Positions 885 through 57,191 of a stretch of 61,936 bases of DNA are shown in pieces. Position 1 is the first letter of the stretch, and each line of letters opens with the position of its first letter. The translations under genes and the position numbers were made by a program. Under the pieces are notes generated by a model. It was not told where the DNA came from, ran no database searches, and saw nothing but the letters and a program-made list of their open reading frames with translations. The DNA is from a virus (lineage: Duplodnaviria; Caudoviricetes), in the IMG/VR virus record IMGVR_UViG_3300031974_003128, positions 1-61,936 of that record; one strand, written 5' to 3'.

Positions 885-1159
885 AATCAGAAGAACTTAA
901 AAAACAAATTATACAAGCAGGGCGTAGAGCAGTAGAGCAACTTATTAAAGTAGCAAAAGAAGATATTATAAAACCTGATCCTGAAGATGAACTAGCTGCA
1001 GATAGATTAAAGAATGCAGCAGCCACAAAAAAGCTAGCTATTTTTGATGCTTTTGATATTTTAAATAAAATAGATTTAGAAGAAGAAGTACTTGAAAGTG
1101 GAGGAACAATAGATAAAACAAATACAAAACAAGGGTTTGCAGAACGAAGATCAAAATAG
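881..1159 (+). CDS. putative terminase small subunit
   Basis: Helical 92-aa ORF immediately upstream of and overlapping the large terminase; positional inference. Confidence 0.5.
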   Translation: MKSEELKKQIIQAGRRAVEQLIKVAKEDIIKPDPEDELAADRLKNAAATKKLAIFDAFDILNKIDLEEEVLESGGTIDKTNTKQGFAERRSK

Positions 1160-11456: not shown

Positions 11457-14400
11457 ATGGCAAACATTCAAAGAAATTTTATAGCGGGCCGTATGAACAA
11501 AAGCCTTGATGAAAGGCTTGTTCCTAATGGAGAGTATATAGATGCTTTGAATGTTAGATTGGGTTCTACTGAAGAATCTGAGATAGGTGCAGTTGAAAAT
11601 ACAAAAGGTAACATACAGGTTACTACTTTACAGTATACAGACGGAACTCCACTGAGCACTTCTGCTAGATGTATTGGAGCTTATGAAGATGGAGCAAATG
11701 AAACCATTTATTGGTTTGTACACGATCCAGCTTTTACAGTTGGAGCTACAGGTAAACTAGATTTAATTGTTTCATACAATGTAGTTACAGGTTCTCTTAT
11801 ATACCACGTTGTTAGCATCAATGATGGTTTCGGGGGTAGCACTGTATTAAATTTCAATCCAGATTATTTAATAACAGGTATAGATAAGGTAGATGATTTA
11901 TTATTCTTTACAGATAATTTTAATCCACCAAGAGTAATTAATATAGGAAGAAACTACCCTAACCCTGTATCTAATATAGACCAGGTTACAAATGAACAAT
12001 TAAATGTAATTAAAAAACCACCAACACAATCGCCAAGTATTACATTAATTCAAACTTCTTTACAAGATTCATATTTAGAAGAAAACTTTATTTGTTTTGC
12101 ATACAGATATAAATATGCCAACGGAGAATATTCTGCTATATCACAGTTTTCTGAAGCAGCTTTTTTCCCTCAATCATTTCAATTTTCTGCAAATAGTTTT
12201 TTAAATGAAGGAATGATTAATAATAGTAACGGAGTTACTATAACTTATAATTCTGGAAGTTCTTTAGTTACAGGTATTGATTTATTATTTAAAGAAGCCA
12301 CTGATCCTACTATTAAAGTTATAGAAAGAATTGATAAAGCTAAAAATGGTTTAGCAAATAATGTTAATTACACTTTTACATTTACAAATAGCAAAATATT
12401 TACTGTTCTTCCTGAATATGAAATATTAAGATTATATGACAATGTTCCAAAGCTAGCTAAAGCTCAAACTGTAATGAACAATAGACTAGTTTATGGTAAC
12501 TATGTAGAAGGATATAATTTAATTGATATTAATAATACTGATGTTAACATTGATTTTTCAACAACATTAAATTCTACGTCTGTAGATTTAACAGACTTAA
12601 CAACAACTTTTGCTAATTCTCAATATCAAGCTTTTGGTAATACATATCCTGGTGTTAATAACAGATTACAGGTAGACTTTAATGGTAATACAGATAAGTT
12701 AAAACAGGGGGCTCAAATTAATTTTTTATTTAGATTTGAGTTTGATTCTGCATTTGATTCAAGTGGAGGTGGTTTACCTAATACAGATCAAGGTAGTACG
12801 ACAATAAGTTTTTCTTATGTTTTAACTCAAGATTATTATCAATCTGCTACACCTATATTAGATTTAGTCGCAAATGCTGATTTTAAAGCAAGAATAGGTA
12901 CTGCTACTTCTATTCAAACTGTAGCTAATGCTCAAGCTGGAAATGGTTCTACAATGACAGATCAGTTTAATGCTTCATTGCTTGCTCAACTTGGAACTAC
13001 TAGCCCACAATATGATGTTTATCAAACAGGTATTTCAGCTAGTACAGCAACACCTCCAGCAAAAGGAGAGCCTATTGCTACATCTGGCCCTAATAATGTA
13101 TTACAATTAGTTATACCAGCTGCTCAGTACGAAGAAACAGGAGTTGGTACTAACACAATTATACAGTATTATCAAATTACAGAAGCTTCAGCTTCAATTC
13201 AAGATATATCAGATACACAAAGTTTACATTCAAACAGAGGTTATGAAATTGGTATAGTATATATGGATGCATACAATAGAGCTTCAACAGCTTTAGTAAG
13301 TGACACTAATACAGTTAACATTCCTTGTTCAGCTTCTACATCAAAGAATGAAATACAAGTTACTATACCTATTACACAAAGAGCTCCAAGCTGGGCAACT
13401 AGATATAAGTTTGTTATTAAACCAGATAGAGAAAATTATGAAACTATATACTCAAGTATATTTATAAATGATCCAAACTCATTAAATACTTATTTATTAT
13501 TAGAAGGTGATAATGTTTCTAAAGTAGAAGAAGGGGATAGATTAATAGTAAAGAGAGATGCTAATGGCCCTATGCAGTCTTGTGTATACGCAACTGTATT
13601 AGAAAAAAAATCACAAGCTCCTGACTTTATAACACCTACAAGTGGTAATCCAGTTCCTGGAGGTACTTATATGAAAATGAGTGCTGAAGATTTTTCAACT
13701 ATAGAAGGAACAGATGATGTAATTAACTTAGGAACATTTGAACAAACTGCTGATAATGCTGACGAAAATCCAGTGGCAGCAAATCCTTTCTTTACAACAA
13801 GTGGTGGTATAAACACGAATTATGATGTACCTGTAGGATCAAGAATTGTAATGAAGATTGAGCAAGTAAGAAATGGAACAGGTAGTTTATGTGAACAAAG
13901 AACAAGTGTATTAGAAGAAACATTTATTGCAAGCGATAGTTTCAATGATATGTATGATTGGTTTGTTAGTGATAATGTAGCTTATGTTATTGAAAACAAT
14001 GCTACTACTGTTTCTGGCGATCCATCAGACCCTGTAGGAAATGTAGTAATTCCAAACTTAGTACCTGGTTCACCAACAGGGACACCTGAATCAAATGGAT
14101 ATGCAGGGAATAATATTGGTGATGCTGCAATGTTTACAATGTTTGGTGGTGAAACTAACAGCCCTACTACTAGCAGTGATTTACTTCTAAACAACTATTA
14201 TAGATTTTATCAAGACGGAAACGATAACAGTTATTATTTATTAGTTAGCGGAACAGCAGCATGTGGTGGAGGATCAAATCAAAGATCACTGGTAAAAGTA
14301 TCATTTACAGTTTATAGAAGAGATACATTTATTGTATTTGAAACTGAACCAGAAGAAGCTTTACCAGATGTGTGGTATGAAAATAATTTATCTTTTGGTA

Positions 14401-17400
14401 TTGATTCTGTTGGTAATCATGATGGTAATGTAATAAATCAAGATATTGCAACATCTCAACCTGGTATTGTTAATACAGGTTTCTTTAACTGTTATGCTTT
14501 TGGTAATGGTGTTGAGAGTTATAAAATAAGAGACTCTATTTCAGGTAAAGCAATCAATTTAGGTAACAGAGTATTTACAACATCTAATGTAGAATACAAA
14601 GAATCACATAGATTTGCTGATTTAACATATAGTGGTGTTTATAATGATGAAACTAACGTAAATAAACTTAACGAATTTAACCTTGGTTTATTAAACTTTA
14701 AACCATTAGAAGATTCTTATGGAGATATTGAAATATTATATGGAAGAAAAACAGATATTCTTACTCTACAAGAAGATAAAATATCTTATGTATTAGCAGG
14801 TAAAAATATACTGACAGACGCAGGCGGTGCAAACCAATTAACATCTGTTCCAGAAGTATTAGGTCAACAAGTCGCTAGAATAGAAGAGTATGGTATAAGT
14901 AATAACCCAGAAAGTTTTGCAGTATGGGGGCAAAATAAATACTTTACAGATGTAAAAAGAAGTGCAGTTGTAGAATTAATTGGTAGTTCTGCATCTGATG
15001 AACAACTTAGAATAATATCTGAAGCAGGTATGAGAAGCTGGTTTAGAGATTTATTTACTTCTGCATTTACTACACAAAAATTAGGAGGTTATGATCCATA
15101 CATGAATGAGTATGTACTTACCTCTAATACAATATTAAAACCTGAAGTAGCAGTATGTCTAGCTTGTGGTGTTTCTAAAAACATTACAGTTCCAGCAGGA
15201 GCTGAGTTTATTTATTGTGTTGATGTTACGCAAGCTGTAGGCACAGTAACAGTTGATTATGTAATACCAAGAGAAGGTGAATTAGATATAAACACTGAAT
15301 TAGCTGATGCTATGGTTTCAGAATCAGGAGTTCAATTAATTACAGAAGGAAATCTATCTACTACTTTTTACACTGTTCAGGTTATATACAATGGTATTAT
15401 ATATACATCAGGATCAGTAAACCAATCTGGATCAATTACATTTGCAAAAGATGTGCCTTCTCAAACACAAGCTACAGTTATTGTTACACAAGATTCTTCA
15501 GCTAATGATACAATAGAAATTACAGTTGGATGTCCATCTGCAGAAGAGCTAACTATTTATAGTGTATGTGTTACTGAACCAGCAGACGCAGGAAAATTTA
15601 TACACAATGAATTTGACTGGACTGACGGAACAACTACATCAGCTACACAATCAGATTTAGTTACATTTGGATCAGGAACTACTACATTTATTGTGTCACA
15701 ATATACTGTAAAAGTAGGAAGTCAAGGCACTGGTTTAATACCACCTGATTACGCTACGGTTACAATGTACTCAAACAAAATCGGATTTGATGATTTTGTA
15801 TTTAATCCTGCTACAGATAGATTTGGTTATTTAAGAACAAACACATTCTATGACAACAACATAGTTGATATTACTAGTTTATTAGCAGCCGCTGCTACTA
15901 TACCAACAAATGGAACTTTTGCTCCAACAAAATATTACTCAGACTTTACAATGCCTGCAACAACAGGTAATAAACTGTATTTAATCTGGGATTACACAGG
16001 AACTTTATCACCAACACCTCCTACTGCGCCAGTTGCTCCAACAGCACCTACACCAGTAGCACCAACTCCACCTACTCCAATAGCACCAACTCCTGTGCCA
16101 GTTCCTATTCCAACTCCTGTGCCAGCGCCAGTTCCTATTCCAACTCCGCCAACTCCGCCAACTCCGCCAACTCCAGTTGCTCCTACCCCAACACCTGTTC
16201 CGGTAGCACCAACTCCAGTTGCGCCAGTTGCTCCAACAGCACCTACTCCTACAGCTTTATACTATAGATTAAACCCTTGTGTTGGAACAGCTCAATTCTG
16301 TTACTATCAAGCAGCTGCACAGCCTGCTCCTAATCAGAGATATATTGATGGTACTACAGGTGTTTATTATTATTATAGTGGTGACGCTGGTTTAGTGAGT
16401 CCTGGTGGAACAGTTTGTTCAAACATACAAATTATTAGTGGTCAAACAGGATGTCCAGGAGCGCCTACTGCGCCTACTGCACCAACTCCAACTGCAACAT
16501 TCCAAGATGTAGAAATTAGAGAATGTTACACAACAGGAACAACATACCTTGTAAGATTACAAGGAGGGGTATTAACATCACCTACTTTATCAAGTGGGAC
16601 TGCTGTAAAAATTACTGGCTCAGCTTTCTTCCCTAATCCTGAGTTTACAGGAACTAAATGTTGGGAAATTATAGACGCATCGGCATCAAGCTATGATTCA
16701 GTCGTTTCAGTTGATGCAATAGAAAGTAGTTGTGGAAGTACAAATTGTCCTGTTACTTATGAATACAGAGAATATACAGAATGTCACACAAGTTTAACTC
16801 AAATATTTAGAAACTTTGCAGGAAGTACTTGGCCAAGTGTAATACAATACAATATAGGTGGAAATGATTTATGTTTCTCAAGCGGTGTTACAACAAGTAC
16901 AACATCGACAGTAGATATAGCAGGATTAACAACATTTAATAATTGTTATGATTGTGAAAGTCCAAACACTTGGAGTACTGCTATAGCAGGTAGTGGTGAT
17001 GGATCTGATTCAACGGCTTGTCCAAAAAGAACTGACTATGCTATATTTACAACAAGAGCTGATGTTTCATTAATACAAGCAGGAGATATAATGTATGCAA
17101 ACTCATCATTATCAACTGTATTTAATGGTGGTACATTATGGTATGGAGTATCAAATACTCAAGGATTATTAGGAGCTGATTACGCATTATTAATATTAGC
17201 AACAGGGGTTGTTCAAACTGTTGTGAATTGTAATCCTCCAACACCAAACCCTGTAGCGCCTATACCGACACCTCCATTCCCACCTACGCCTCCAACACCA
17301 CCATCGCCACCGACACCGGTTGCGCCAACTCAAGAAATTTCAGTTGTTAGATGTGGTACTGCTTCTCCAACTTATCATGTAGAAGTTATAGGAGCATCAG

Positions 17401-18368
17401 GATTAACAACAGGATTAGGTATTCAGTTTAGTTCTGGTGGATCAACTGGTGGTTGTCCAACTTTTGACACCACTCAATGTTATGAGATTACAGCTGTTAA
17501 CATTGGTTTCCATAACTGTCAAGGTAACTGGTATTTTACTAGTAGTAATTGTGGTGGATTAAGTGGATGTGTAGCGCCTACACCTCCGACTCCTCCAACA
17601 CCTACAGCGCCTACACCGACGCCTACTGCGCCTACACCCACACCGACTCCAACTCCTCCAACACCAGGGCCTACGCCTACGCCTACGCCTACACCGACGC
17701 CTACGCCTACGCCGACTCCGGTAGCACCAACACCTGTTCCGGTAGCATCGACTTATTACGCTACATTTGTTGAATGTGGTGATCCAACAGGAGCAGTGTT
17801 ACAAGTATTTGATTCTAGTCCAATTTCTAGTATATGGGTTATTGATGACGGTATATTATGTTATGAATATGTAAATAGTAGTGGAACAGGAGCTGATGGA
17901 AATATAAATAGTTATAATTTATTTACGAGCTGTATAGATTGTCAGAATCCTCCAACGCCTACGCCAGTACCTGTACCAGTACCAGTGCCTGTGCCTGTGC
18001 CTGTGCCTGTGCCTACTCCAGTGCCGACACCTACGCCGCCGACACCTACTCCGCCGACACCTACTCCAGTGCCTGTGCCTACTCCAGTGCCTGTGCCGAT
18101 ACCTACACCTACTCCAGTAGCGCCTAGCCCAAGTTGTATAGGATTAACGGGAAGTAGAAGCTCAATATCTGCGGCAGATGCTTGTAGTTCAACAAGAGTT
18201 GAAACTCATTACTATAATAGCGGAAGTTTCTGTTCAGCAACAGCATACTATGGAACAACAGCAGGATGTTCAAGCTTATATGCATCAGCAGTATATGTTA
18301 CTGTAGGGGGTAATGTTAGATTCTGGAATGGATCAGCATTTACTACATCTTGTCAAGGATGTCCATAA
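11457..18368 (+). CDS. tail stabilisation (nozzle, P22 gp10-like) protein, N-terminal part, with long Pro-rich/Cys-rich C-terminal extension
   Basis: N-terminus FIAGRMNKSLDERLVPNGEYIDALN, FAYRYKY, LGGYDPYMNEY typical of Bacteroidota podovirus stabilisation proteins; after about aa 1515 alternating Pro-rich tracts and Cys-rich modules. Confidence 0.75.
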   Translation: MANIQRNFIAGRMNKSLDERLVPNGEYIDALNVRLGSTEESEIGAVENTKGNIQVTTLQYTDGTPLSTSARCIGAYEDGANETIYWFVHDPAFTVGATGKLDLIVSYNVVTGSLIYHVVSINDGFGGSTVLNFNPDYLITGIDKVDDLLFFTDNFNPPRVINIGRNYPNPVSNIDQVTNEQLNVIKKPPTQSPSITLIQTSLQDSYLEENFICFAYRYKYANGEYSAISQFSEAAFFPQSFQFSANSFLNEGMINNSNGVTITYNSGSSLVTGIDLLFKEATDPTIKVIERIDKAKNGLANNVNYTFTFTNSKIFTVLPEYEILRLYDNVPKLAKAQTVMNNRLVYGNYVEGYNLIDINNTDVNIDFSTTLNSTSVDLTDLTTTFANSQYQAFGNTYPGVNNRLQVDFNGNTDKLKQGAQINFLFRFEFDSAFDSSGGGLPNTDQGSTTISFSYVLTQDYYQSATPILDLVANADFKARIGTATSIQTVANAQAGNGSTMTDQFNASLLAQLGTTSPQYDVYQTGISASTATPPAKGEPIATSGPNNVLQLVIPAAQYEETGVGTNTIIQYYQITEASASIQDISDTQSLHSNRGYEIGIVYMDAYNRASTALVSDTNTVNIPCSASTSKNEIQVTIPITQRAPSWATRYKFVIKPDRENYETIYSSIFINDPNSLNTYLLLEGDNVSKVEEGDRLIVKRDANGPMQSCVYATVLEKKSQAPDFITPTSGNPVPGGTYMKMSAEDFSTIEGTDDVINLGTFEQTADNADENPVAANPFFTTSGGINTNYDVPVGSRIVMKIEQVRNGTGSLCEQRTSVLEETFIASDSFNDMYDWFVSDNVAYVIENNATTVSGDPSDPVGNVVIPNLVPGSPTGTPESNGYAGNNIGDAAMFTMFGGETNSPTTSSDLLLNNYYRFYQDGNDNSYYLLVSGTAACGGGSNQRSLVKVSFTVYRRDTFIVFETEPEEALPDVWYENNLSFGIDSVGNHDGNVINQDIATSQPGIVNTGFFNCYAFGNGVESYKIRDSISGKAINLGNRVFTTSNVEYKESHRFADLTYSGVYNDETNVNKLNEFNLGLLNFKPLEDSYGDIEILYGRKTDILTLQEDKISYVLAGKNILTDAGGANQLTSVPEVLGQQVARIEEYGISNNPESFAVWGQNKYFTDVKRSAVVELIGSSASDEQLRIISEAGMRSWFRDLFTSAFTTQKLGGYDPYMNEYVLTSNTILKPEVAVCLACGVSKNITVPAGAEFIYCVDVTQAVGTVTVDYVIPREGELDINTELADAMVSESGVQLITEGNLSTTFYTVQVIYNGIIYTSGSVNQSGSITFAKDVPSQTQATVIVTQDSSANDTIEITVGCPSAEELTIYSVCVTEPADAGKFIHNEFDWTDGTTTSATQSDLVTFGSGTTTFIVSQYTVKVGSQGTGLIPPDYATVTMYSNKIGFDDFVFNPATDRFGYLRTNTFYDNNIVDITSLLAAAATIPTNGTFAPTKYYSDFTMPATTGNKLYLIWDYTGTLSPTPPTAPVAPTAPTPVAPTPPTPIAPTPVPVPIPTPVPAPVPIPTPPTPPTPPTPVAPTPTPVPVAPTPVAPVAPTAPTPTALYYRLNPCVGTAQFCYYQAAAQPAPNQRYIDGTTGVYYYYSGDAGLVSPGGTVCSNIQIISGQTGCPGAPTAPTAPTPTATFQDVEIRECYTTGTTYLVRLQGGVLTSPTLSSGTAVKITGSAFFPNPEFTGTKCWEIIDASASSYDSVVSVDAIESSCGSTNCPVTYEYREYTECHTSLTQIFRNFAGSTWPSVIQYNIGGNDLCFSSGVTTSTTSTVDIAGLTTFNNCYDCESPNTWSTAIAGSGDGSDSTACPKRTDYAIFTTRADVSLIQAGDIMYANSSLSTVFNGGTLWYGVSNTQGLLGADYALLILATGVVQTVVNCNPPTPNPVAPIPTPPFPPTPPTPPSPPTPVAPTQEISVVRCGTASPTYHVEVIGASGLTTGLGIQFSSGGSTGGCPTFDTTQCYEITAVNIGFHNCQGNWYFTSSNCGGLSGCVAPTPPTPPTPTAPTPTPTAPTPTPTPTPPTPGPTPTPTPTPTPTPTPTPVAPTPVPVASTYYATFVECGDPTGAVLQVFDSSPISSIWVIDDGILCYEYVNSSGTGADGNINSYNLFTSCIDCQNPPTPTPVPVPVPVPVPVPVPVPTPVPTPTPPTPTPPTPTPVPVPTPVPVPIPTPTPVAPSPSCIGLTGSRSSISAADACSSTRVETHYYNSGSFCSATAYYGTTAGCSSLYASAVYVTVGGNVRFWNGSAFTTSCQGCP
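16008..18131 (+). repeat. five Pro-rich coding tracts (about 16008-16253, 16456-16495, 17235-17330, 17571-17745, 17949-18131)
   Basis: Tandem units such as (ccaactccg)n, (acgcct)n, (gtgcct)n encoding PTP, PT, PV. Confidence 0.95.
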
Positions 18369-18427
18369 AATAATATTTGCACCCTTTAAATATAATTTTT
18401 AACTTTATTAAAATTTAATTTAATATA

Positions 18428-19717
18428 ATGGAGGAAATAAAAGATTTTTTGACTCAAGAAGAGTGTCAAGAATTAATAAAATTAATAGATGCCGACCACC
18501 AAAGATCACAAGTTGTGGAAGGTGGAACTGATAGATCAGCAGTATCAGAAGTAAGAACATCAAGCACTTGTAATCTTAGTAACGAAAACCCACTTGTTTT
18601 AAAAGTACATAAAAAAATATCTGAACACCTTGGTTTAGATATAAAATATGGTGAGTCACTTCAAGGACAACTATACGAAGTTGGTCAGTTTTTTAAACCA
18701 CACCAAGATTTCTTTAGTGGTATTGCATACGATAAACATTGCAAAGCTTCAGGTAATAGAACGCATACATTTATGATTTATTTAAATGATGATTTTGAGG
18801 GCGGAGGAACACACTTTCCAACATTGAAAAAAACAATAGAGCCTGAAACAGGGAAAGGTTTATGGTGGTATAATATGGTAGATGGTGAAGTACAGAATCA
18901 ATATATGCACGAAGGTGTATCAGTTGACAGTGGTAAAAAATATATTATAACTTCTTGGTGGAGAGAGAAAGTTTGGGATGGAGCAGCTGATCAAAATCTT
19001 TATGAGCAATCTGCCAAAGAAGATATTGAAGATGCTGTAGTAGTAGAAGAGCCACAATCATATATTGTTAAAGCATCAGAGTTAATTAAAACCACTGAGG
19101 TAATTGAGTCATCAGCTAAAACATTTTCAAGCAAAGATGATTTTCCCAAGTTTACTGAACAAGGTTTTGCATTACAAAAATGTCCTGCAAATGTGTGGGG
19201 AGTTATTCAGGATGCATATAACTTATTGAAAGAAAAACTTGTAGAAGAAAACTTCGAAGGCAAAGAACAATTTATAGTAGGTGGTGGTAGTGATATATTA
19301 TCTTTTGACCACGCTCCTAATATAAGATCTTATATTCATAATGAGTTGATTGGTATACACGAAGAGTTTTCAAAAGAAAACCTTGAGCCATCTTTTGTAT
19401 ATGGTATAAGATCATATACTAAAAATGCAACTTTAACACCTCATACCGATAGAATAGCAACCCATCATATATCGTCAATTATAATTGTAGATAAAGACTT
19501 AGCTTGCGGTTGTTCAAATAAACCAAACGCTGATGATTGGCCACTAGATATTCAGGGTCATGATGGTGAATGGTATAAAGTATATGCACAACCAGGAGAT
19601 ATGATACTGTATGAATCTGCTAAATGTGAACACGGAAGAGTAGAACCTTTTGGAGGAACATTCTTTAGGAACTTTTATGTGCATTATAAATTAAAAGACT
19701 GGGAGTATAAACCATGA
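18428..19717 (+). CDS. prolyl 4-hydroxylase-like 2OG-Fe(II) oxygenase fused to a second 2OG-Fe(II) oxygenase domain
   Basis: Domain 1: FLTQEEC, RTSS, ESLQ..YEVGQFFKPHQD, TFMIYLND.EGGGTHFP, YMHEG..V.SGKKY...W; domain 2: YGIRSY..LTPHTDR, PGDMILYESAKCEHGR. Confidence 0.9.
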   Translation: MEEIKDFLTQEECQELIKLIDADHQRSQVVEGGTDRSAVSEVRTSSTCNLSNENPLVLKVHKKISEHLGLDIKYGESLQGQLYEVGQFFKPHQDFFSGIAYDKHCKASGNRTHTFMIYLNDDFEGGGTHFPTLKKTIEPETGKGLWWYNMVDGEVQNQYMHEGVSVDSGKKYIITSWWREKVWDGAADQNLYEQSAKEDIEDAVVVEEPQSYIVKASELIKTTEVIESSAKTFSSKDDFPKFTEQGFALQKCPANVWGVIQDAYNLLKEKLVEENFEGKEQFIVGGGSDILSFDHAPNIRSYIHNELIGIHEEFSKENLEPSFVYGIRSYTKNATLTPHTDRIATHHISSIIIVDKDLACGCSNKPNADDWPLDIQGHDGEWYKVYAQPGDMILYESAKCEHGRVEPFGGTFFRNFYVHYKLKDWEYKP

Positions 19718-20730
19718 GTAAAACAATACTTGTAACAGGTGGCGCTGGTTTTATAGCTCATCACGTTATAGAAGAAATACTGGATAATACTGACTGGAAT
19801 ATAGTTAGTCTAGATAGATTAGATTTTAGTGGTAATCTAAATAGACTGCAAGAAGTAGTAGGTAGTAGAAAAGATAAGAAAAGAGTTAAAGTTATACATC
19901 ACGATTTAAAAGCTCCTCTTAATCCTCAGATTACTTCTTCTATTGGTAAGGTAAATTATGTAGCTCATTTAGCTGCAGGATCTCACGTAGATAGAAGTAT
20001 TGACTATCCAATGGAGTTTGTTCTTGATAATGTGGTTGGGACAGCAAACATATTAGAGTATGCTAAAACATTAGATATGCTAGATAAGTTTGTTTATTTT
20101 AGTACGGATGAAGTATTTGGCCCAGCTCCAGGAGAAGTTAAGTATAAGGAGAATGATAGATATAATTCTACTAATCCATATAGCGCATCTAAAGCTGGGG
20201 CAGAAGAGTTAGTTGTGGCTTTTGAAAACACTTATCAAATGCCAAACATAATAACCCATACTATGAATGTCTTTGGCGAAAGACAACATCCCGAAAAGTT
20301 TATACCAATGTGTATTAATAAAGTGTTAAAAGGTGAAAAGATTTGGATACACGGTAACAAAGAAAAAACAGAAGCCGGTAGCAGACACTACATACACGCT
20401 AAAGATGTAGCTAGTGCTTTATTGTTTTTACTAAATAATGACACACCATCTGTGCCTGATGAAACAGGAATTAAGTGTCCTAAGTATAATATTGTAGGTT
20501 CAGAAGAAATAGATAATTTATCATTAGCATTATATATATCAGCAGTGTTAAAGAAAAAATTAAAATATGAAATTATAGACTTTCATTCATCAAGACCAGG
20601 GCATGATTTACGTTATGCTTTATGTGGTGATAAAATGAAAAGTATTGGATGGACACCTAGTGAAGTTTATGATAAACTAAAACAAACTGTAAACTGGACT
20701 GTAGAAAATAAAAGATGGTTGATAGATTAA
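19714..20730 (+). CDS. NDP-glucose 4,6-dehydratase (RmlB-like extended SDR)
   Basis: VTGGAGFIA, HLAAGSHVDRSI, STDEVFG, YSASK, RPGHDLRYA. Confidence 0.9.
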   Translation: MSKTILVTGGAGFIAHHVIEEILDNTDWNIVSLDRLDFSGNLNRLQEVVGSRKDKKRVKVIHHDLKAPLNPQITSSIGKVNYVAHLAAGSHVDRSIDYPMEFVLDNVVGTANILEYAKTLDMLDKFVYFSTDEVFGPAPGEVKYKENDRYNSTNPYSASKAGAEELVVAFENTYQMPNIITHTMNVFGERQHPEKFIPMCINKVLKGEKIWIHGNKEKTEAGSRHYIHAKDVASALLFLLNNDTPSVPDETGIKCPKYNIVGSEEIDNLSLALYISAVLKKKLKYEIIDFHSSRPGHDLRYALCGDKMKSIGWTPSEVYDKLKQTVNWTVENKRWLID

Positions 20731-21552
20731 ATGAACAATTTCAACTTTCTAATTACTGCTCACTCTGATAATCCTACCAGATTAAATTTACTTTTACAAT
20801 GTATTGAATCAATAAAAAGATTTGGATATAAAGCCATAGTCGTTGATCATTTTTTTAACTACGAAGCATTTAAAGAAGCTGATGGTTTTGTATGGGTAGA
20901 AGATAATGCTATAGTAAAGCCTCAAGAGTGGAGTAAATATGATTTGTATCATGTGTGTCAAACCAATTATGAAAAGGTAGATACATTTACACCTTACGAT
21001 AGCTTTGCTCCATTTGCAATCATAGATCAATTCAACAAAGGTTATAGACTAGTTGAAGGTGATGGTGTATTTAGTATACATTATGATTGGCAACTTAAAA
21101 AAGATGTAAAAGAACTAGTAGAAAAATATCCTAACAGAGAAGGTATATTCTTTAAATATCCTCCAGATAATATGTCTTTATTTAGCAGTTGTTTTTATTT
21201 AAAGAAGTCACTTTGGAAAAAGTTTGAAAGAATACAATCTTTAGATCAGTATATGCATGAAATTAAAAAATATATGGAGTGGTTTTTTTATGATGAGTTC
21301 AAAGATGAAAATGTAGAAATATTAAAATCACACCCTAACGAATATTTTATTAATGATTTATATTATAGATCATCTTATTTAAATTTTAAATGCAATCTAT
21401 ATGGTTTAGATGATGAGGTTATATTTAATTTTAATAATTCATTTGAAACATTAGACAAAAAATTAGATTACTATTTTGTAAAAGAAGACAAGCCTCTTAA
21501 TATTCATTTACATAAAGACCATTTTAAATTTCATACATTTAGAAAAAAATGA
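20731..21552 (+). CDS. putative glycosyltransferase (GT-A-like)
   Basis: N-terminal LITAH..LLQCIESIK..AIVVDH resembles a GT-A start; IHYD candidate metal motif; cassette context. Confidence 0.5.
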   Translation: MNNFNFLITAHSDNPTRLNLLLQCIESIKRFGYKAIVVDHFFNYEAFKEADGFVWVEDNAIVKPQEWSKYDLYHVCQTNYEKVDTFTPYDSFAPFAIIDQFNKGYRLVEGDGVFSIHYDWQLKKDVKELVEKYPNREGIFFKYPPDNMSLFSSCFYLKKSLWKKFERIQSLDQYMHEIKKYMEWFFYDEFKDENVEILKSHPNEYFINDLYYRSSYLNFKCNLYGLDDEVIFNFNNSFETLDKKLDYYFVKEDKPLNIHLHKDHFKFHTFRKK

Positions 21553-22382
21553 TACGATTTATTCCCAGTGCAATAGTAGATGATAGATACAGATGGATGG
21601 CTAACTTCTGGGCGTATTGTCAAAAAAAAGCTTATGGTTTACAATCATATAATAATAGTCTTGTAACTGTAGTAAAACAAAACAATACATTTAGTCCTGT
21701 ATATAATAATGTTGATTGGGATTTAAAAGGATTACCTTATTATATGTCACCTCCAATATGGGATTATGTAACTTGTCGAAACGAAAACTGTGTAGTTATA
21801 AATGTATTCTCTTCTATAAAACCACTGCTTGATTTATATGATGATGAGGACACAATAGTCTTGTGTGATATGGATATTGTTTCACTAAAAAAATATAATC
21901 ATATAATGCCAGGTGATAGTAATGTTATATGCTATGATGGCTATGAAGAATGGCATATGTTTATAGCAGATGAGTCAAAGAAAAACTATAATAAAATTAA
22001 AAAGTATTTAACTCATGAATCTGGTAAGTTTATGAACGGTGGTTTTGTTCCTATACTTGTAAAGAATAAAACTTTAAAACTTATCATTGATGATGTTATA
22101 TCTATAGCAGAACAAATTATAGAATCAGACTCAGAAGTAAACTGGAAATGGTGGGCTTGTATGACTGCATTTTCTATTGCTTGTCATAATAATAGAATTA
22201 AAATGATAGGGCAGAATAATACTTATATACCTAGTTTTAATCAGTTTGATGAACACGATCATTACTTCGCTCACTATAGTGTTGATTCTCAGTTTAATAA
22301 AGCTACATTTCCTAATCATAATATAGCAGAATATCCAAATAATTCTTTTTATGCTTTAGTTAAGGAATGGATGGCAAATTAA
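21549..22382 (+). CDS. glycosyltransferase resembling hydroxyproline O-arabinosyltransferase / peptidyl-serine galactosyltransferase (GT95/GT96-like)
   Basis: DxD motif (LCDMD) plus colinear blocks resembling recalled HPAT motifs (see findings). Confidence 0.6.
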   Translation: MIRFIPSAIVDDRYRWMANFWAYCQKKAYGLQSYNNSLVTVVKQNNTFSPVYNNVDWDLKGLPYYMSPPIWDYVTCRNENCVVINVFSSIKPLLDLYDDEDTIVLCDMDIVSLKKYNHIMPGDSNVICYDGYEEWHMFIADESKKNYNKIKKYLTHESGKFMNGGFVPILVKNKTLKLIIDDVISIAEQIIESDSEVNWKWWACMTAFSIACHNNRIKMIGQNNTYIPSFNQFDEHDHYFAHYSVDSQFNKATFPNHNIAEYPNNSFYALVKEWMAN

Positions 22383-22403
22383 AACACTTAACTTTTTAAT
22401 TTG

Positions 22404-22411
22404 TAAATTTG
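22404..22411 (+). promoter_or_regulatory. TAnnTTTG promoter element (TAAATTTG)
   Basis: Intergenic, 18 nt upstream of ATG 22430. Confidence 0.65.
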
Positions 22412-22429
22412 TACAATATTAATTGATTT

Positions 22430-23635
22430 ATGGATTGTTTAACCTATGTAATAGTTTGTCCAGTAGGAGCAGATGGTGGTGAGTGTTCTTGGAATATACT
22501 TTGTTGTGATGGTGTTAAAAGATCAGTAACAATTCCAGAGGAAGATGAGCGAGAAGTATGTTTAGGTTACCCCTACAATATAGGTAAAACTTCTATATCA
22601 GGTTCTTCATATAGAAAAGAACCGGCAGAATCTTGTAATACTACTTGTGGTTATGCCGATCCTAGCCCACTACCTCCACCTAGTCCACCAACTCCGGTTG
22701 CACCGACACCAAGTCCTGCACCGAGTCCAACTCCAACTCCAACTCCAACTCCAACTCCTATACCTACTCCAACTCCTATACCTACTCCAACTCCAGTTCC
22801 TGCGAGTATAGTTCCACCTATACCTTCGCCAGTAACTACAGAGTATACATTAACTTATTCTCAAGCAGCTCAAGGTTGGCCATCTTTTTATTCTTTCATA
22901 CCTGAGATTATGATTGGTATGAATCAATACTTTTATTCATTTAGTGGTGGTAATTTATATCAACATAATAGTGATCTATCAAGAAATAATTTTTATGGAA
23001 CTCAATACAACTCATATATAACTACAGTGTTTAATGAGAGACCTCTTGAAAACAAACTATTTAAAACAATTAATTTAGAATCAGATCAAGCTTGGGATGT
23101 TACAATGGAAACAGATATACAAACTAATGGGTATATAGATTCAGAATGGTTTGAGAAAAAAGAAAACGCATTCTTTGCATTTATTAGACAAAGAGGAGAG
23201 ATACCTGCATTAACAGGTGAGTATGCCATGAGATCAGTAAATGGTATAGGTAAAGCATTATCTTGGAGTTTAGTCACCACTACCTTGACAGTAAACTTTT
23301 CAATCACGCCTCTAGTTAGTATAGGTAGTGAGGTGTCAGTAGGAGACTATTTATATTTCTCTGTTCCTTCATATACCACAGTAGAATTAGCAGGTCAGAT
23401 TACAAACATTGAAGTAAATCTTCCAGCAGGTATAAACAGAATTACAGTTGACGCATCCGTATCAGGAGCACAGCCTATTACAGTAGCAGATCCTTATATC
23501 TTATTTATTAAAAGTGCTGAAGCAGAATCTAATGGTTTACTTGGTCACTATGGTATATTTACCCTTACAAACAAAAGCACGCAATCAACTGAATTATTTG
23601 CCGTTGAATCGGAAATCATGAAAAGCTATCCGTAA
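22430..23635 (+). CDS. tail stabilisation protein C-terminal part, preceded by a Cys-rich module and Pro-rich tract
   Basis: TLTYS..GWPSFYSFIPE.MIGMN..FYSF.GG.LYQHN...RNNFYG...KLFKTINLE, recalled as the C-terminal region of single-chain stabilisation proteins; PSPLPPPSPP(TP)n at about 22661-22832. Confidence 0.7.
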   Translation: MDCLTYVIVCPVGADGGECSWNILCCDGVKRSVTIPEEDEREVCLGYPYNIGKTSISGSSYRKEPAESCNTTCGYADPSPLPPPSPPTPVAPTPSPAPSPTPTPTPTPTPIPTPTPIPTPTPVPASIVPPIPSPVTTEYTLTYSQAAQGWPSFYSFIPEIMIGMNQYFYSFSGGNLYQHNSDLSRNNFYGTQYNSYITTVFNERPLENKLFKTINLESDQAWDVTMETDIQTNGYIDSEWFEKKENAFFAFIRQRGEIPALTGEYAMRSVNGIGKALSWSLVTTTLTVNFSITPLVSIGSEVSVGDYLYFSVPSYTTVELAGQITNIEVNLPAGINRITVDASVSGAQPITVADPYILFIKSAEAESNGLLGHYGIFTLTNKSTQSTELFAVESEIMKSYP

Positions 23636-23655
23636 AATTAGTATCTTTGCATAGA

Positions 23656-24054
23656 ATGGAATTTAATATACGAAAATTAAATCCATCTGATTATGAAGAG
23701 GTATTGGTAGGTTGGTGGAAAGATTGGGGTTGGAAAGCTCCAGCTAAAGATTTTCTACCAGAAAACGGAGAAGGTGGATTAATGGTTTTAGATGATATTA
23801 AACCAGTTTGCGCTGGTTTTTTGTACATTTCAAACTCTAAAGTTGCTTGGGTTGAGTGGATAATATCAGATAAGAACTATAAAAACAAAGATAAAGCTTT
23901 GAATTTATTATTGGATACATTAATATTAACAAGCAAAAATTTAAATATGAAATATATATTTGCTACAAATGACAATAAAAGTTTAATTAAAAGATTTGTA
24001 GGCAAAGGTTTTCAAAAAGGTAGTATAACAACTGAATTAATTAAAGTATTATAA
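23656..24054 (+). CDS. GNAT-like protein between tail and ejection genes
   Basis: Promoter TATCTTTG at 23642-23649 favours ATG 23656; acetyltransferase-like pattern (VCAGFLY, WVEWIISD, KGF). Confidence 0.55.
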   Translation: MEFNIRKLNPSDYEEVLVGWWKDWGWKAPAKDFLPENGEGGLMVLDDIKPVCAGFLYISNSKVAWVEWIISDKNYKNKDKALNLLLDTLILTSKNLNMKYIFATNDNKSLIKRFVGKGFQKGSITTELIKVL

Positions 24055-34483: not shown

Positions 34484-35710
34484 CTATAAACTTAATAAAT
34501 CTTTTTTGAAATGAGATAGTGTGTAGTCTTTTTTCTTTATTACTGCATCATAAATCTTGTCTTCTATACCACCCTCTGAGAAAATCCAATACACATCATT
34601 CTCCAATCTATCTTTGGTAGTCATACGATCTCTAGATTGCCAGTAACTTGTCGCACTAAAATCTATGTTATAATATACCAAACATTTAGCCTGTTTTAAA
34701 CTGATTCCTTCTCTTCCAGATACGATCTGAAGAGCAATAGATTTATCTGTATCAACAAACTCTTCTAAAGTAGTACACAAATCATCCCCGTAGACTTGTT
34801 TTAAGGCATCTAATTCGGCTTTAAATTTATAAAATATTCCTATCTTCATTTTAGAAAATTTCTCTCGTATAAACGAAGCTTTTGAGGTGTCTATAACCTG
34901 AGCATTTCCACTCTCAAACTTAACAGTCCCTGAATACATCTGATGAAGCTTGCTCATAAGCTTAACAGCAGTGTCAGCAAGTAGGACTTCATCCTTTCCT
35001 TCGATTACCAAATCATTCTTTAGCTTCTTAGTTAGCTTGTATGTTAGATCACTCATCTTTACATGCAGTACATTCTCTGTGGTCTTTACTTTGAAGCCAG
35101 CTTCTTTCTGTGAATAGCTAATCATATATGGTTTCATCTCATCTATAATAGATTGCTTGCCTCTGGAGTAGTCTCTTATTGTCAGTGCATTTATTTTTTT
35201 CTCAAACACATCCACATATACTTTAGAGAATTTATAAAAGCTTATGTAGTTTCTAAATGGATTCATTGGACAGAAGTAAACCTGATGGTATATCTGGCTA
35301 TAAGATTCTGGAGTTGGAGTTCCAGACATCTGTATCACATAAGGGTTTTGCTTTCTGACAATTTGTTTTACTTGCTTAGCTCTCTTGCTAGGTTTAGGAT
35401 ATGCTCCCATACTATGAGCTTCATCCAGTACTATTGACTCATAAAAGCCAGTGACCTTATGTAGGCTCTCGTAGTTAACTACATTAATATGAAACTTTGG
35501 TTTTAGTTTATTGTAGTCATCTTGTATAGAGCTAATAGCTTTTTTCTTAGTAACAAATAGCATATTAGATACACCTAGTTTTTCTGCTATACCTAATGAT
35601 GTTAAAGTTTTACCTGTTCTAACCTCCATTGCAAGGTACACAAACCTATGCTCCTGGAGTACATCAACAGCTTTATCTATAATATCTTCTTGGTAATCTC
35701 TAAATTTCAA
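34484..35710 (-). CDS. SF2 (SNF2-like) helicase
   Basis: FRDYQ, EVRTGKT, LDEAH, MSGTP, SGREGISL, QSRDR. Confidence 0.9.
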   Translation of the reverse strand: MKFRDYQEDIIDKAVDVLQEHRFVYLAMEVRTGKTLTSLGIAEKLGVSNMLFVTKKKAISSIQDDYNKLKPKFHINVVNYESLHKVTGFYESIVLDEAHSMGAYPKPSKRAKQVKQIVRKQNPYVIQMSGTPTPESYSQIYHQVYFCPMNPFRNYISFYKFSKVYVDVFEKKINALTIRDYSRGKQSIIDEMKPYMISYSQKEAGFKVKTTENVLHVKMSDLTYKLTKKLKNDLVIEGKDEVLLADTAVKLMSKLHQMYSGTVKFESGNAQVIDTSKASFIREKFSKMKIGIFYKFKAELDALKQVYGDDLCTTLEEFVDTDKSIALQIVSGREGISLKQAKCLVYYNIDFSATSYWQSRDRMTTKDRLENDVYWIFSEGGIEDKIYDAVIKKKDYTLSHFKKDLLSL

Positions 35711-54275: not shown

Positions 54276-54285
54276 CGCTTAGCTC

Positions 54286-55332: not shown

Positions 55333-55333
55333 T

Positions 55334-56161: not shown

Positions 56162-56162
56162 T

Positions 56163-57188: not shown

Positions 57189-57191
57189 ATT

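What the first reader, a model, noticed from the sequence alone, without database searches (positions are those of the whole stretch)
16008..22832. Candidate phage-encoded hydroxyproline O-glycosylation system with its Pro-rich virion substrates on both sides
Seen: four tightly coupled genes (P4H-like oxygenase, NDP-glucose 4,6-dehydratase, two putative glycosyltransferases) lie between two tail-protein genes. Those two genes carry the only long Pro-Thr/Pro-Val/Ala-Pro/Ser-Pro tracts in the genome, facing the cassette from either side. Known: plants and green algae build extensins and arabinogalactan proteins by P4H hydroxylation of Pro-rich repeats followed by Hyp O-glycosylation, and chlorovirus PBCV-1 encodes a P4H. 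Inference: this phage hydroxylates and glycosylates Pro-rich stalks on its tail, producing stiff, protease-resistant glyco-linkers that display Cys-rich domains. I know of no such pathway described in a bacteriophage, but cannot check the literature.
Basis: partly seen in the sequence, partly recalled or inferred. Interest (0 to 1): 0.95.

Follow-up and report, generated by a model that had tools for sequence, protein, structure and literature searches.

The report
Phage tail hydroxyproline glycosylation cassette
A marine phage carries, between its two proline-rich tail genes, a prolyl hydroxylase and a plant-type hydroxyproline sugar transferase, so it probably decorates its own tail linkers with sugars the way plants build cell-wall proteins, which has not been described for a phage.

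Summary
The window is a complete 61.9-kb podovirus genome. Four coupled genes (18428-22382) lie between two virion structural genes, and these hold every Pro-rich tract in the genome.

Gene 1 is a two-domain 2OG oxygenase. Its N-domain is a peptidyl prolyl 4-hydroxylase (VIA Z 20.0 to Chlamydomonas P4H-1, catalytic residues intact). Gene 2 is an NDP-hexose 4,6-dehydratase-like SDR. Gene 3 has no assignable family, so "glycosyltransferase" is unverified. Gene 4 passes Pfam's cut-off for HPAT, the plant hydroxyproline O-arabinosyltransferase family (GT95).

In 83 related contigs the same slot holds interchangeable cassettes: the oxygenase plus HPAT, GT60 (the Skp1 Hyp-GlcNAc transferase family), GT32-like or O-FucT-like enzymes. 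All 63 rows with the oxygenase have Pro tracts. The 19 without any cassette have none, but they form one clade, so this is about one evolutionary event. Elsewhere, HPAT-like genes are fused to a P4H-type domain, a JmjC domain or GT60.

The best reading (about 0.6) is hydroxylation and O-glycosylation of the tail linkers. No chemistry is shown. Two related loci have tracts and GTs but no oxygenase. I found no such phage system in four literature searches.

The parts
11457..18368 (+). Large virion structural (tail/muzzle N-part) protein, 2303 aa. From about nt 16005 its C-terminal third is small Cys-containing modules joined by four Pro-Thr/Pro-Val/Pro-Ala tracts (about nt 16005-16253, 17217-17348, 17559-17753, 17931-18143). 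Proposed substrate.
   Evidence: ORF. phrog_14478 virion structural protein, E 1.5e-220. Tracts. Modules of 59-72 aa with 3-7 Cys. In phi38:1 and elemoF this gene and 22430-23635 are one gene.
18428..19717 (+). Two-domain 2OG/Fe(II) oxygenase, 429 aa. The N-domain (aa 1-195, nt 18428-19012) is a peptidyl prolyl 4-hydroxylase. The C-domain (aa 240-429, nt 19145-19714) is a second DSBH oxygenase of unknown specificity with its own HxD...H.
   Evidence: Pfam PF13640, E 1.4e-14. PDB: B. anthracis P4H E 1.3e-24, human C-P4H alpha-2 4.5e-19, PBCV-1 vCPH 5.4e-13, Chlamydomonas P4H 7.5e-13. Model pLDDT 84. VIA: Z 20.0 to 2jij and 18.4 to 5c5t for aa 1-185; Z 13.8 to HalB for aa 240-429. H92/D94/H161/K171 and H339/D341/H402/R414 conserved.
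19714..20730 (+). NDP-hexose 4,6-dehydratase-like extended SDR, 338 aa (sugar-nucleotide supply).
   Evidence: Pfam GDP_Man_Dehyd 8.3e-48 and Epimerase 3.1e-46. TIGR01181 at 245 bits, below its 365-bit equivalog cut-off. Best PDB matches are dTDP-glucose 4,6-dehydratases (8du1, 3.3e-48). STDE at aa 130 and YSASK at aa 156.
20731..21552 (+). ORF3, 273 aa, family unknown. Possibly a GT-A-like enzyme (weak lead only).
   Evidence: No Pfam, PHROG or NCBIfam hit. Only 5 clusters in 5.8 billion proteins. AlphaFold model pLDDT 46.7, unusable. Atlas nearest named clusters are WavE and GT2, at 0.93. No profile match to HPAT or c15.
21549..22382 (+). HPAT-like (GT95 family) glycosyltransferase, 277 aa, soluble. 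Proposed initiating transferase on Hyp (or Ser/Thr) of the Pro-rich tracts.
   Evidence: Pfam PF23452 HPAT, E 5.5e-8, 33 bits against cut-off 23.9. 32.5 bits on six-frame search, 0 of 14 control genomes hit. Invariant D107-x-D109. No TM-like segment.
22430..23635 (+). Virion structural (muzzle C-part) protein, 401 aa. It has an N-terminal 70-aa Cys-rich module, a Pro-Ser/Pro-Thr tract (about nt 22637-22840), then the conserved crAss_MUZ_C-containing domain. Proposed substrate.
   Evidence: Pfam PF25729, E 1.4e-19. phrog_38031, 4.5e-103. Tract. Relatives without the cassette have only the roughly 265-aa C-domain.

Best explanation
This is a phage-encoded system that modifies the phage's own tail proteins after translation.

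Proposed steps, all in the host cytoplasm:
1. The N-domain of the oxygenase hydroxylates prolines in the (Pro-Thr/Val/Ser/Ala)n linkers. These linkers join small Cys-containing modules at the C-end of the 2303-aa tail protein and at the N-end of the 401-aa muzzle C-part.
2. The soluble HPAT-like GT-A enzyme attaches the first sugar to the new hydroxyl, as plant HPAT does on extensins.
3. The 4,6-dehydratase-like SDR feeds an NDP-4-keto-6-deoxyhexose into the host's deoxy-sugar route for the glycan.
4. ORF3 and the oxygenase C-domain are accessory, doing extension or a second oxidation. Their functions are unknown.

Shown here: gene identities, catalytic residues, gene coupling, co-occurrence and gene fusions.
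Inferred: the substrate, Hyp as the acceptor, the sugar, and the benefit (extended, protease-resistant linkers that display receptor-binding modules).
For: (1) Enzyme identity.
- P4H by sequence and by fold. The nine top VIA rows are all prolyl hydroxylases, with Z 20.0 to the algal cell-wall P4H-1.
- The Fe/2OG residues are intact.
- HPAT passes Pfam's curated cut-off. It is the only Pfam family hit for 10 of 18 distant family members.

(2) Interchangeable partners in one slot.
- In 63 of 84 rows the slot holds the oxygenase, and 60 of those also have a recognisable GT.
- The partners are HPAT, PF11397/GT60 (up to E 5.4e-76; the family of Gnt1, which glycosylates Hyp143 of Skp1, PMC3515798 passages), a GT32-like enzyme or an O-FucT-like enzyme.
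- Two GT families whose characterised founding members act on Hyp therefore sit next to a P4H.

(3) Gene fusions elsewhere.
- HPAT + P4H-type 2OG-FeII_Oxy_3 in one 720-aa protein (L121).
- HPAT + Cupin_8/JmjC (P0040), and HPAT + GT60 (P0049, P0058, P0062; L136).
- In 52 loci with distant HPAT homologues, 23 have the oxygenase and 18 have it directly adjacent.

(4) Substrate.
- Every Pro tract of the genome is in the two genes that flank the cassette.
- All 63 oxygenase-bearing rows have tracts. The 19 rows with no cassette have none, and their muzzle C-part is only about 265-300 aa.
- Whole genomes: the window and G001 have cassette and tracts. MW202828.1 (complete), phi38:1 (67.6 of 72.5 kb scanned) and elemoF (50 of 59.8 kb scanned) have neither.
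- Other lineages place a Pro-rich, Cys-module protein beside the cassette: L136/137 adjacent, L121/122 two genes away, L098 three genes away.
- (Pro-Val)n stretches have no Ser or Thr, so only Hyp could carry an O-glycan there (sequence).

(5) Location. All four enzymes lack a membrane segment and lie inside the TerL-portal-virion module.
Against: - No chemistry is shown: no Hyp, no glycan, no virion data.
- On the muzzle-domain tree, tract presence changes once and oxygenase presence twice. The 19 negatives are one clade, so the 63/0 against 0/19 split is not 82 independent observations. The independent-pairs test had only 2 pairs.
- L018 and L019 keep long tracts with GT60+GT32x2 but have no oxygenase in 10 kb upstream. 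Thr/Ser glycosylation therefore suffices at least there.
- L055 and L089 have only the C-domain type of oxygenase.
- L088 and L091 have the oxygenase but no recognised GT.
- 29 of 52 distant HPAT loci show no oxygenase in the fetched stretch.
- In the TerL-portal-OXY-HPAT lineage no Pro tract of 40 residues or more lies within the fetched stretch (three of these loci carry only a 26-33-residue stretch in an unrelated ORF). In its one complete genome the tracts are in a 1789-aa ORF more than 10 kb from the cassette.
- GT95 is related to GT96, a Ser galactosyltransferase (PMC8012813 passage). From recall, GT60 also includes Thr/Ser GlcNAc transferases. The GT families therefore do not prove a Hyp acceptor.
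- The B. anthracis P4H, the best sequence match, also modifies EF-Tu (title of 5v7y).
- No plant HPAT sequence was retrieved for a direct comparison.
- No base rate of Pro tracts in random phage genomes was measured.
Confidence: 0.6

Rival explanations
1. The linkers are glycosylated on Thr/Ser, as in mucins or cellulase PT linkers. The oxygenase is not needed to make the acceptor. It either only stabilises the polyproline-II helix through Hyp or acts on something else.
For: L018 and L019 have long tracts and GT60+GT32x2 but no oxygenase. Tracts are 16-26% Thr and 7-12% Ser in most cassette types (OFucT-only: 9% each). GT95 is related to the Ser-galactosyltransferase family GT96. From recall, GT60 includes polypeptide Thr/Ser GlcNAc transferases. 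L088 and L091 have the oxygenase without a recognised GT.
Against: The oxygenase is present in 63 of the 65 tract-bearing rows and sits first in the cassette. HPAT is fused to a P4H-type domain and to a JmjC hydroxylase domain elsewhere. Long (PV)n stretches offer no Ser or Thr.
Confidence: 0.2
2. The P4H hydroxylates a host protein, such as EF-Tu or a ribosomal protein, as a take-over function. The GTs act on that protein or independently. The Pro-rich linkers are plain unmodified spacers.
For: Bacterial P4Hs closest in sequence or fold modify EF-Tu (5v7y and 4iw3 titles). Tpa1/OGFOD1, two-DSBH prolyl hydroxylases of Rps23, also appear among the matches. Single-domain homologues occur in cyanophages and Erwinia jumbo phages outside structural modules.
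Against: The cassette lies inside the virion module between the only Pro-rich genes. The collagen/HRGP-type P4Hs score Z 17-20 against 14-15 for PHD/EF-Tu types. The relatives that lack the cassette also lack the tracts, and their flanking genes are shorter.
Confidence: 0.08
3. The cassette modifies a non-protein target: phage DNA bases (as with TET/JBP oxygenase plus GT) or host LPS/capsule.
For: Oxygenase-plus-GT cassettes for DNA hypermodification exist in phages (recalled). PHROG hits of the N-domain carry 'DNA endonuclease' labels. L121's oxygenase domain gave a sub-threshold Tet_JBP hit at E 0.0013. The dehydratase would equally suit polysaccharide synthesis.
Against: The window protein gives no Tet_JBP hit and folds as a P4H. 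The GT families found in the slot (HPAT, GT60, O-FucT) are protein O-glycosyltransferase families by Pfam description. There is no membrane segment for an LPS-modifying Gtr-type system. The cassette co-occurs with Pro tracts.
Confidence: 0.05

Closest known systems
Plant and green-algal hydroxyproline-rich glycoprotein (extensin) pathway: P4H followed by HPAT (GT95) and SGT1 (GT96)
   Same: A P4H whose best structural match is the algal cell-wall P4H-1. A GT in Pfam's HPAT family. Pro-rich repeat substrates, including SPPP-type motifs in relatives (APPPSPPPSPPPSPP in L004-L008).
   Different: The enzymes are soluble and have no type II membrane anchor. They would act in a bacterial cytoplasm. 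UDP-L-arabinofuranose is unlikely as donor, and a 6-deoxyhexose route is encoded instead. Repeats are mostly Pro-Thr/Pro-Val dipeptides. The oxygenase carries a second catalytic domain. No direct hit to a plant HPAT sequence was obtained.
Skp1 modification in Dictyostelium/Toxoplasma: PhyA (P4H) then Gnt1 (GT60)
   Same: It is cytoplasmic and soluble. A P4H is followed by a GT of Pfam PF11397, a pairing found in the same slot of related phages (21 rows carry GT60 in their cassette, 20 of them with the oxygenase; Pfam). 'Hydroxylated Skp1 is a substrate for Gnt1' (PMC3515798 passage).
   Different: That pathway modifies a single Pro on one regulatory protein and serves O2 sensing. The window itself has HPAT, not GT60.
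PBCV-1 (chlorovirus) viral prolyl 4-hydroxylase vCPH
   Same: A virus-encoded small P4H, Z 18.4. It hydroxylates Pro-rich repeat peptides in vitro (PMC7019647 passage).
   Different: It comes from a eukaryotic virus and has no adjacent Hyp-GT. Its role is unknown, and no Hyp was detected in virions (PMC7019647 passage).
Mycobacteriophage virion O-glycosylation by phage-encoded GTs (Freeman et al. 2023)
   Same: Phage GT genes lie beside structural genes and decorate virion proteins. Only the reference in PMC12582341 was seen; the details are recalled.
   Different: No hydroxylase is involved. The GT families and the host phylum differ. The targets there are capsid and tail-tube C-termini (recalled). 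The paper is not held.
Mimivirus collagen hydroxylysine hydroxylase/glycosyltransferase (L230)
   Same: A virus-encoded 2OG hydroxylase coupled to glycosylation of a repeat-rich structural protein. 6ax6 is in the match list at Z 11.6. The function is recalled.
   Different: It targets Lys, not Pro, in collagen Gly-X-Y repeats, and belongs to a eukaryotic giant virus.

Membership tests
Peptidyl prolyl 4-hydroxylase (2OG/Fe(II) oxygenase, Pfam PF13640 type) | DSBH fold closest to known P4Hs | tested here: met
   Model pLDDT 84. VIA ranks 1-9 are all prolyl hydroxylases: 2jij Z 20.0, rmsd 2.1, 165 aligned; 5c5t Z 18.4. Foldseek E 3e-12 to 5hv0.
Peptidyl prolyl 4-hydroxylase (2OG/Fe(II) oxygenase, Pfam PF13640 type) | His-x-Asp...His iron triad and the Lys that binds 2OG | tested here: met
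   H92-Q-D94, H161 and K171 align with the B. anthracis P4H motifs. They are nearly invariant in 19 full-length relatives and were printed.
Peptidyl prolyl 4-hydroxylase (2OG/Fe(II) oxygenase, Pfam PF13640 type) | Hydroxylates peptidyl proline at C4 | not testable with these tools
   Needs an enzyme assay or virion MS.
HPAT / CAZy GT95 | Matches the family profile above its curated threshold | tested here: met
   PF23452 at 33.0 bits against 23.9 and 32.5 bits on six-frame search. 0 of 14 control genomes hit. 10 of 18 distant homologues hit HPAT and no other family.
HPAT / CAZy GT95 | Metal-binding DxD of a GT-A enzyme (motif role recalled) | tested here: met
   D107 and D109 are invariant in 22 sequences down to 37% identity.
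HPAT / CAZy GT95 | Direct sequence link to characterised plant HPAT1-3 | tested here: inconclusive
   The profile search of 1.84 billion representatives gave 81 proteins, none identifiable as plant. A search from the most HPAT-like member found 2 metagenomic proteins. No plant sequence was available to align.
HPAT / CAZy GT95 | Golgi type II membrane anchor | tested here: not met
   Maximum 19-residue Kyte-Doolittle mean is 1.07, and the protein is 277 aa, catalytic-domain size. [quoted passage not shown] This is expected to differ in a phage.
HPAT / CAZy GT95 | Transfers L-Araf from UDP-beta-L-Araf to Hyp | not testable with these tools
   Neither donor nor acceptor can be read from the sequence.
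dTDP-glucose 4,6-dehydratase (RmlB, TIGR01181) | Equivalog score | tested here: not met
   245.4 bits against cut-off 365.1. It is the best-scoring family, and the best PDB hits are all 4,6-dehydratases.
dTDP-glucose 4,6-dehydratase (RmlB, TIGR01181) | Thr-Asp-Glu and Tyr-xxx-Lys active-site motifs (recalled from RmlB) | tested here: met
   STDE at aa 130 and YSASK at aa 156.
TET/JBP oxygenase + GT DNA hypermodification | Oxygenase of the TET/JBP family | tested here: not met
   No PF12851 hit for the window protein at E <= 0.01. Its fold neighbours are P4Hs.
Phage virion glycosylation systems | Glycan on virion proteins | not testable with these tools
   Only the genomic position inside the virion module could be shown.

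The most novel reading that the evidence does not exclude
Bacteriophages of marine and freshwater Bacteroidota make true hydroxyproline-O-glycoproteins. They would use a modular, swappable toolbox: a P4H fused to a second oxygenase, plus GT95-like, GT60, GT32-like or O-FucT-like transferases, a carbamoyltransferase and a radical-SAM/SPASM enzyme. With it they turn Pro-rich tail linkers into extensin-like glyco-rods that display small Cys-rich receptor-binding modules. If so, Hyp O-glycosylation, regarded as a plant and protist trait, also exists in prokaryotic viruses. The 'plant-specific' HPAT fold would then have a soluble viral branch.
Probability: 0.5. Interest if true: 0.88.

Novelty: new variant of a known kind. 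Interest (0 to 1): 0.8.

Why it matters
- Hydroxyproline O-glycosylation is textbook plant and green-algal cell-wall biology, with one cytoplasmic case (Skp1) in protists. A preprint abstract in my listing calls Hyp O-arabinosylation 'plant-specific' (10.1101/2022.10.26.513895).
- A phage version would be the first Hyp-glycoprotein system in a bacterial virus.
- It would give soluble, small (277 aa) relatives of HPAT that can be expressed in bacteria. No solved structure matched this protein by sequence.
- It would explain a hypervariable island in the tail module of an abundant aquatic phage group: 526 related stretches in IMG/VR.
- It would link linker chemistry to host recognition and virion stability.
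- It offers compact enzyme pairs, and natural fusions, for making Hyp-glycopeptides in bacteria.
- It is directly testable on virions of a cultured relative, if one with the cassette can be found, or with recombinant enzymes and (PT)n peptides.

Tried and rejected
- Nucleotide and protein searches of GenBank phages with the cassette found nothing close. The window's own record may be hidden.
- ORF3. There was no family in three libraries and only 5 homologue clusters. The AlphaFold model had pLDDT 46.7, so I ran no fold search on it. Atlas leads were weak. hhalign to HPAT and to c15 was negative. I therefore reject calling it a glycosyltransferase.
- Oxygenase C-domain. It had no Pfam hit even at E 10 and no PDB sequence hit. 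The fold is a generic 2OG oxygenase, so no specificity is assigned.
- Promoter and terminator scan: no excess over shuffles, uninformative.
- Cassette type against tract composition. GT32-like loci have (S/T)PP-rich tracts, GT60 loci have (TP)n and O-FucT loci are Ala/Val-rich. However, L056 (GT60) and L012/L014/L016 (HPAT/c15) share nearly the same tract. This is confounded by descent and not used as evidence.
- The C-terminal Cys module of L136 against that of the window gave BLASTP E 0.033 over 26 residues. Homology is not established.
- My interim reading that the TerL-portal-OXY-HPAT lineage lacks Pro tracts came from 10-kb flanks and a (Px)7 pattern. It was corrected by scanning 60,000 of the 60,858 nt of the complete genome G001.
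- Collagen-like (Gly-X-Y) substrates were considered and dropped. All tracts found in the window are Pro-Thr/Val/Ala/Ser repeats.
- Rows dropped before the counts: L020, L057, L061 and L062 (the same contigs as L013, L003, L008 and L004), and L006, L007, L015 and L018 (no clustered muzzle ORF in the stretch).
- Literature. Searches returned no paper describing a phage Hyp-glycosylation system, judged from listings and abstracts only. Supplements were closed and not consulted. Subscription journals are mostly not held.

Full report
**What is there**

The window is a complete phage genome of 61,936 bp with direct terminal repeats. Gene order on the + strand is:
- terminase large subunit (1137-3383)
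- portal (3380-5815)
- several virion structural proteins
- a 2303-aa virion structural protein (11457-18368)
- four tightly packed genes (18428-19717, 19714-20730, 20731-21552, 21549-22382; overlaps of 4, 0 and 4 nt)
- a 401-aa protein whose C-terminal part carries Pfam's crassvirus muzzle C-terminal domain (22430-23635)

The nearest named phages are podoviruses of Flavobacteriia: Cellulophaga phage phi38:1 (Pervagoviridae), the Flavobacterium 'elemo' phages, and an uncultured spring-water podovirus. In phi38:1 and elemoF the two flanking genes are one gene, annotated as a virion structural protein. In the window's lineage that gene is split, and the cassette sits at the split.

With a fixed rule (at least 40% Pro in 20 residues), Pro tracts occur only in the two flanking genes. 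There are four tracts in the last third of the 2303-aa protein and one near the start of the 401-aa protein. The other two hits are antisense frames inside longer ORFs. A codon pattern for (Pro-x)6-Pro has 35 matches, all in these two genes, against none in 100 shuffles. Between the tracts lie modules of 59-72 residues with 3-7 Cys each, plus one stretch of 321 residues with 13 Cys. Their mutual similarity is weak.

**The enzymes**

*Gene 1* has two domains.
- Residues 1-195 match solved prolyl 4-hydroxylases by sequence: B. anthracis 1.3e-24, human C-P4H alpha-2 4.5e-19, PBCV-1 5.4e-13, Chlamydomonas 7.5e-13.
- A model with pLDDT 84 aligns best to Chlamydomonas P4H-1 (Z 20.0, rmsd 2.1 over 165 residues) and PBCV-1 vCPH (Z 18.4). 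The nine best chains are all prolyl hydroxylases (Foldseek agrees).
- The iron triad and the 2OG lysine are present and conserved.
- Residues 240-429 form a second double-stranded beta-helix oxygenase with its own HxD...H and Arg. It has no Pfam or PDB sequence match and only generic fold neighbours: HalB Z 13.8, CurA halogenase, AviO1/EvdMO1, AspH. Its specificity is open.

*Gene 2* is an extended SDR. It scores best against dTDP-glucose 4,6-dehydratase, at 245 bits, under the 365-bit equivalog cut-off. It has the STDE and YxxxK motifs (their meaning is recalled).

*Gene 3* could not be assigned.

*Gene 4* matches Pfam HPAT, the hydroxyproline O-arabinosyltransferase family (GT95).
- It scores 33 bits against a gathering score of 23.9. 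The result repeated on the six-frame search, with no hit in 14 control genomes.
- D107-x-D109 is invariant across 22 homologues.
- The family is small: 81 representatives at E <= 0.001 among 1.84 billion proteins.
- Of 18 distant members, 10 hit HPAT and none hits another Pfam family.

None of the four proteins has a membrane-like segment.

**Relatives: one slot, many cassettes**

I fetched 16 loci through the HPAT-like protein and 80 through the conserved muzzle C-domain. That second search found 526 relatives and kept the best 80.

All 16 HPAT loci also have the oxygenase. Of these, 11 have the SDR and 5 have ORF3.

I dropped four duplicates of the same contigs and four loci without a clustered muzzle ORF. 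That left 83 loci plus the window, 84 rows in all:

| Rows | Oxygenase | Recognised GT | Pro tracts | Note |
|---|---|---|---|---|
| 60 | yes | yes | yes | |
| 3 | yes | no | yes | L016, where the HPAT reading frame is broken, and L088, L091 |
| 19 | no | no | no | each has at least 7.3 kb upstream; muzzle C-part is only about 265-300 aa |
| 1 | no | GT60 + double GT32-like | yes | L019; its near-twin L018 is the same |
| 1 | ? | ? | yes | L045 has too little upstream DNA |

The cassettes differ:

| Cassette | Rows |
|---|---|
| OXY-GT32-like | 18 |
| OXY-radical SAM/SPASM-GT60 | 8 |
| OXY-SDR-ORF3-HPAT (the window's type) | 7 |
| OXY-c15-HPAT | 7 |
| OXY-GT60 | 4 |
| OXY-SDR-c15-HPAT | 3 |
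| Three OXY-O-FucT-carbamoyltransferase variants | 9 |
| Others | |

Pfam supports the names: PF11397 'GlcNAc' up to 5.4e-76, PF04488, PF10250, carbamoyltransferase N and C domains, Radical_SAM plus SPASM. PF11397 is the family of Gnt1, and 'hydroxylated Skp1 is a substrate for Gnt1' (PMC3515798, passages). The family link is recalled from Pfam's description.

**How much the co-occurrence is worth**

On a tree of the muzzle C-domain, the 19 cassette-free rows form one clade (SH-aLRT 99). Tract presence needs one change and oxygenase presence two. Only two independent pairs exist, so no test is possible. The 63/0 against 0/19 table is therefore consistent with the hypothesis but counts as roughly one event.

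Evidence from further away adds to it.
- I fetched 52 loci with HPAT-like genes only 35-54% identical to their query. Of these, 23 have a homologue of the oxygenase and 18 have it directly adjacent. The other 29 show none in the fetched stretch.
- L121 encodes a single 720-aa protein with an HPAT domain and a P4H-type 2OG-FeII_Oxy_3 domain. Two genes upstream is an FN3 protein with a (Pro-Val-Val)n tract and a Cys-rich end.
- L136 and L137 have, in a row, a 210-aa protein that is 130 residues of Pro-Thr/Pro-Ala repeat plus a Cys module, then a two-domain oxygenase, then a GT60-HPAT fusion, then c15.
- L098 has an (Ala-Pro)n protein three genes from a 187-aa P4H that adjoins HPAT.
- Among library proteins, HPAT is fused to Cupin_8/JmjC (P0040), to GT60 (P0049, P0058, P0062; P0051 just under threshold) and to methyltransferases.

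One lineage places OXY-HPAT right after terminase and portal, and shows no Pro tract of 40 residues or more within the fetched stretch; three of these loci carry only a 26-33-residue stretch in an unrelated ORF. A (Px)7 pattern found nothing in five of its records. Scanning 60,000 of the 60,858 nt of its one complete genome showed a 1789-aa ORF with five tracts of other periodicity: (PAPASDPP)3, (TAPP)4, (VPTEP)n.

At whole-genome level, cassette-free relatives have no tract and no cassette enzyme:
- MW202828.1, complete: maximum 6 Pro in 20 residues.
- phi38:1, 67.6 of 72.5 kb scanned: maximum 7.
- elemoF, 50 of 59.8 kb scanned: maximum 6.

I did not measure a base rate in random phage genomes.

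**Best reading and its limits**

The cassette most likely modifies the phage's own tail linkers. The P4H domain makes Hyp, and the HPAT-like enzyme starts an O-glycan on it. The dehydratase points to a 6-deoxyhexose made with host enzymes, since no epimerase or reductase was found next to it in the cassette. Arguments for Hyp as the acceptor:
- Two GT families whose characterised founding members act on Hyp alternate next to a P4H.
- HPAT is fused to hydroxylase domains elsewhere.
- The (Pro-Val)n stretches offer no other hydroxyl.

Arguments against:
- L018 and L019 keep tracts and GTs without the oxygenase.
- L055 and L089 keep only the C-domain type.
- GT95's sister family GT96 glycosylates Ser (PMC8012813, passage). 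From recall, GT60 also has Thr/Ser-directed members.
- P4Hs close to this one also hydroxylate EF-Tu.

I put the main reading at 0.6, Thr/Ser glycosylation with a non-essential hydroxylase at 0.2, a host-protein target at 0.08, and DNA or polysaccharide targets at 0.05.

**Novelty**

Four full-text searches returned no phage system of this kind:
- hydroxyproline / bacteriophage / glycosyltransferase / P4H: 168 papers, 25 listed
- crAss-like + P4H: 0 papers
- phage virion O-linked glycosylation: 23 papers
- phage + P4H + proline-rich + tail: 4 papers, 3 listed

I saw listings and abstracts only.

Known neighbours:
- The plant HRGP pathway.
- The protist Skp1 pathway.
- The PBCV-1 P4H, whose role is unknown and for which no Hyp was found in virions (PMC7019647, passages).
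- Phage-encoded virion glycosylation in mycobacteriophages. Only the reference was seen, in PMC12582341. The paper itself is not held.

I file this as a new variant of a known kind. The chemistry is known and the enzyme families are recognisable. The setting is new: a bacteriophage, the host cytoplasm, tail linkers, and a swappable island.

Noticed in passing
window 19145-19714 (aa 240-429 of the oxygenase); L055:5273-5869, L089:5048-5644: The C-terminal half of the oxygenase is a second, apparently catalytic 2OG/Fe(II) domain (H339-x-D341, H402, R414). It has no Pfam or PDB sequence match. It stands alone as a 199-aa protein in two related loci that lack the P4H domain yet have Pro tracts. 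A PHROG family it hits is labelled 'ferrochelatase', which looks like a mislabel.
   Followed up: partly
L058:7224-8123 and 7 further loci (cluster 21): Some cassette variants carry a radical SAM/SPASM enzyme between the oxygenase and GT60. It lies beside tail proteins made of small Cys-rich modules, so it could form thioether or other cross-links in those modules.
   Followed up: no
L021:5896-8282, L055:5760-8370 and relatives: Other variants pair an O-FucT-like GT (PF10250) with a NodU/CmcH-type carbamoyltransferase. This suggests carbamoylated sugars on the same linkers. Their tracts are Ala/Val-rich rather than Thr-rich.
   Followed up: partly
window 11457-18368 + 22430-23635 versus phi38:1 gp097 (L145:5770-9744) and elemoF gp22: The tail/muzzle protein is one gene in the cultured relatives but is split in two in the window's lineage, including the cassette-free clade. 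The Pro/Cys modules and the cassette sit exactly at the split point.
   Followed up: partly
window 23647-24054: A conserved 135-aa gene follows the muzzle C-part in 62 loci (phrog_17252). It is annotated 'N-terminal acetyltransferase complex subunit' in MW202828.1 and 'structural protein' in phi38:1. It may be a virion-associated GNAT-like protein.
   Followed up: no
window 54000-60302: A block of higher G+C (0.39-0.42 against about 0.31-0.33 elsewhere) holds a 1036-aa tail-fibre-like protein (DUF7483 at 6e-154 plus a Gly-rich domain). It has no Pro tracts.
   Followed up: no
L016:10001-10816: The HPAT-like gene of this relative is readable only in three frames, so it is either frameshifted or an assembly error. 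The oxygenase there is also in two pieces.
   Followed up: no
L015:2501-3109; P0036: A GDSL/SGNH-type hydrolase or acyltransferase sits upstream of HPAT in one relative, and a weak sub-threshold GDSL-like match lies N-terminal to the HPAT domain in one library protein. This hints at O-acylated glycans.
   Followed up: no
window 35707-38121 (- strand): An 804-aa protein with a BT4734-like N-terminal domain and DUF5906 is probably the primase/helicase-type replication protein. The genome switches strand near 32 kb and again near 46 kb.
   Followed up: no
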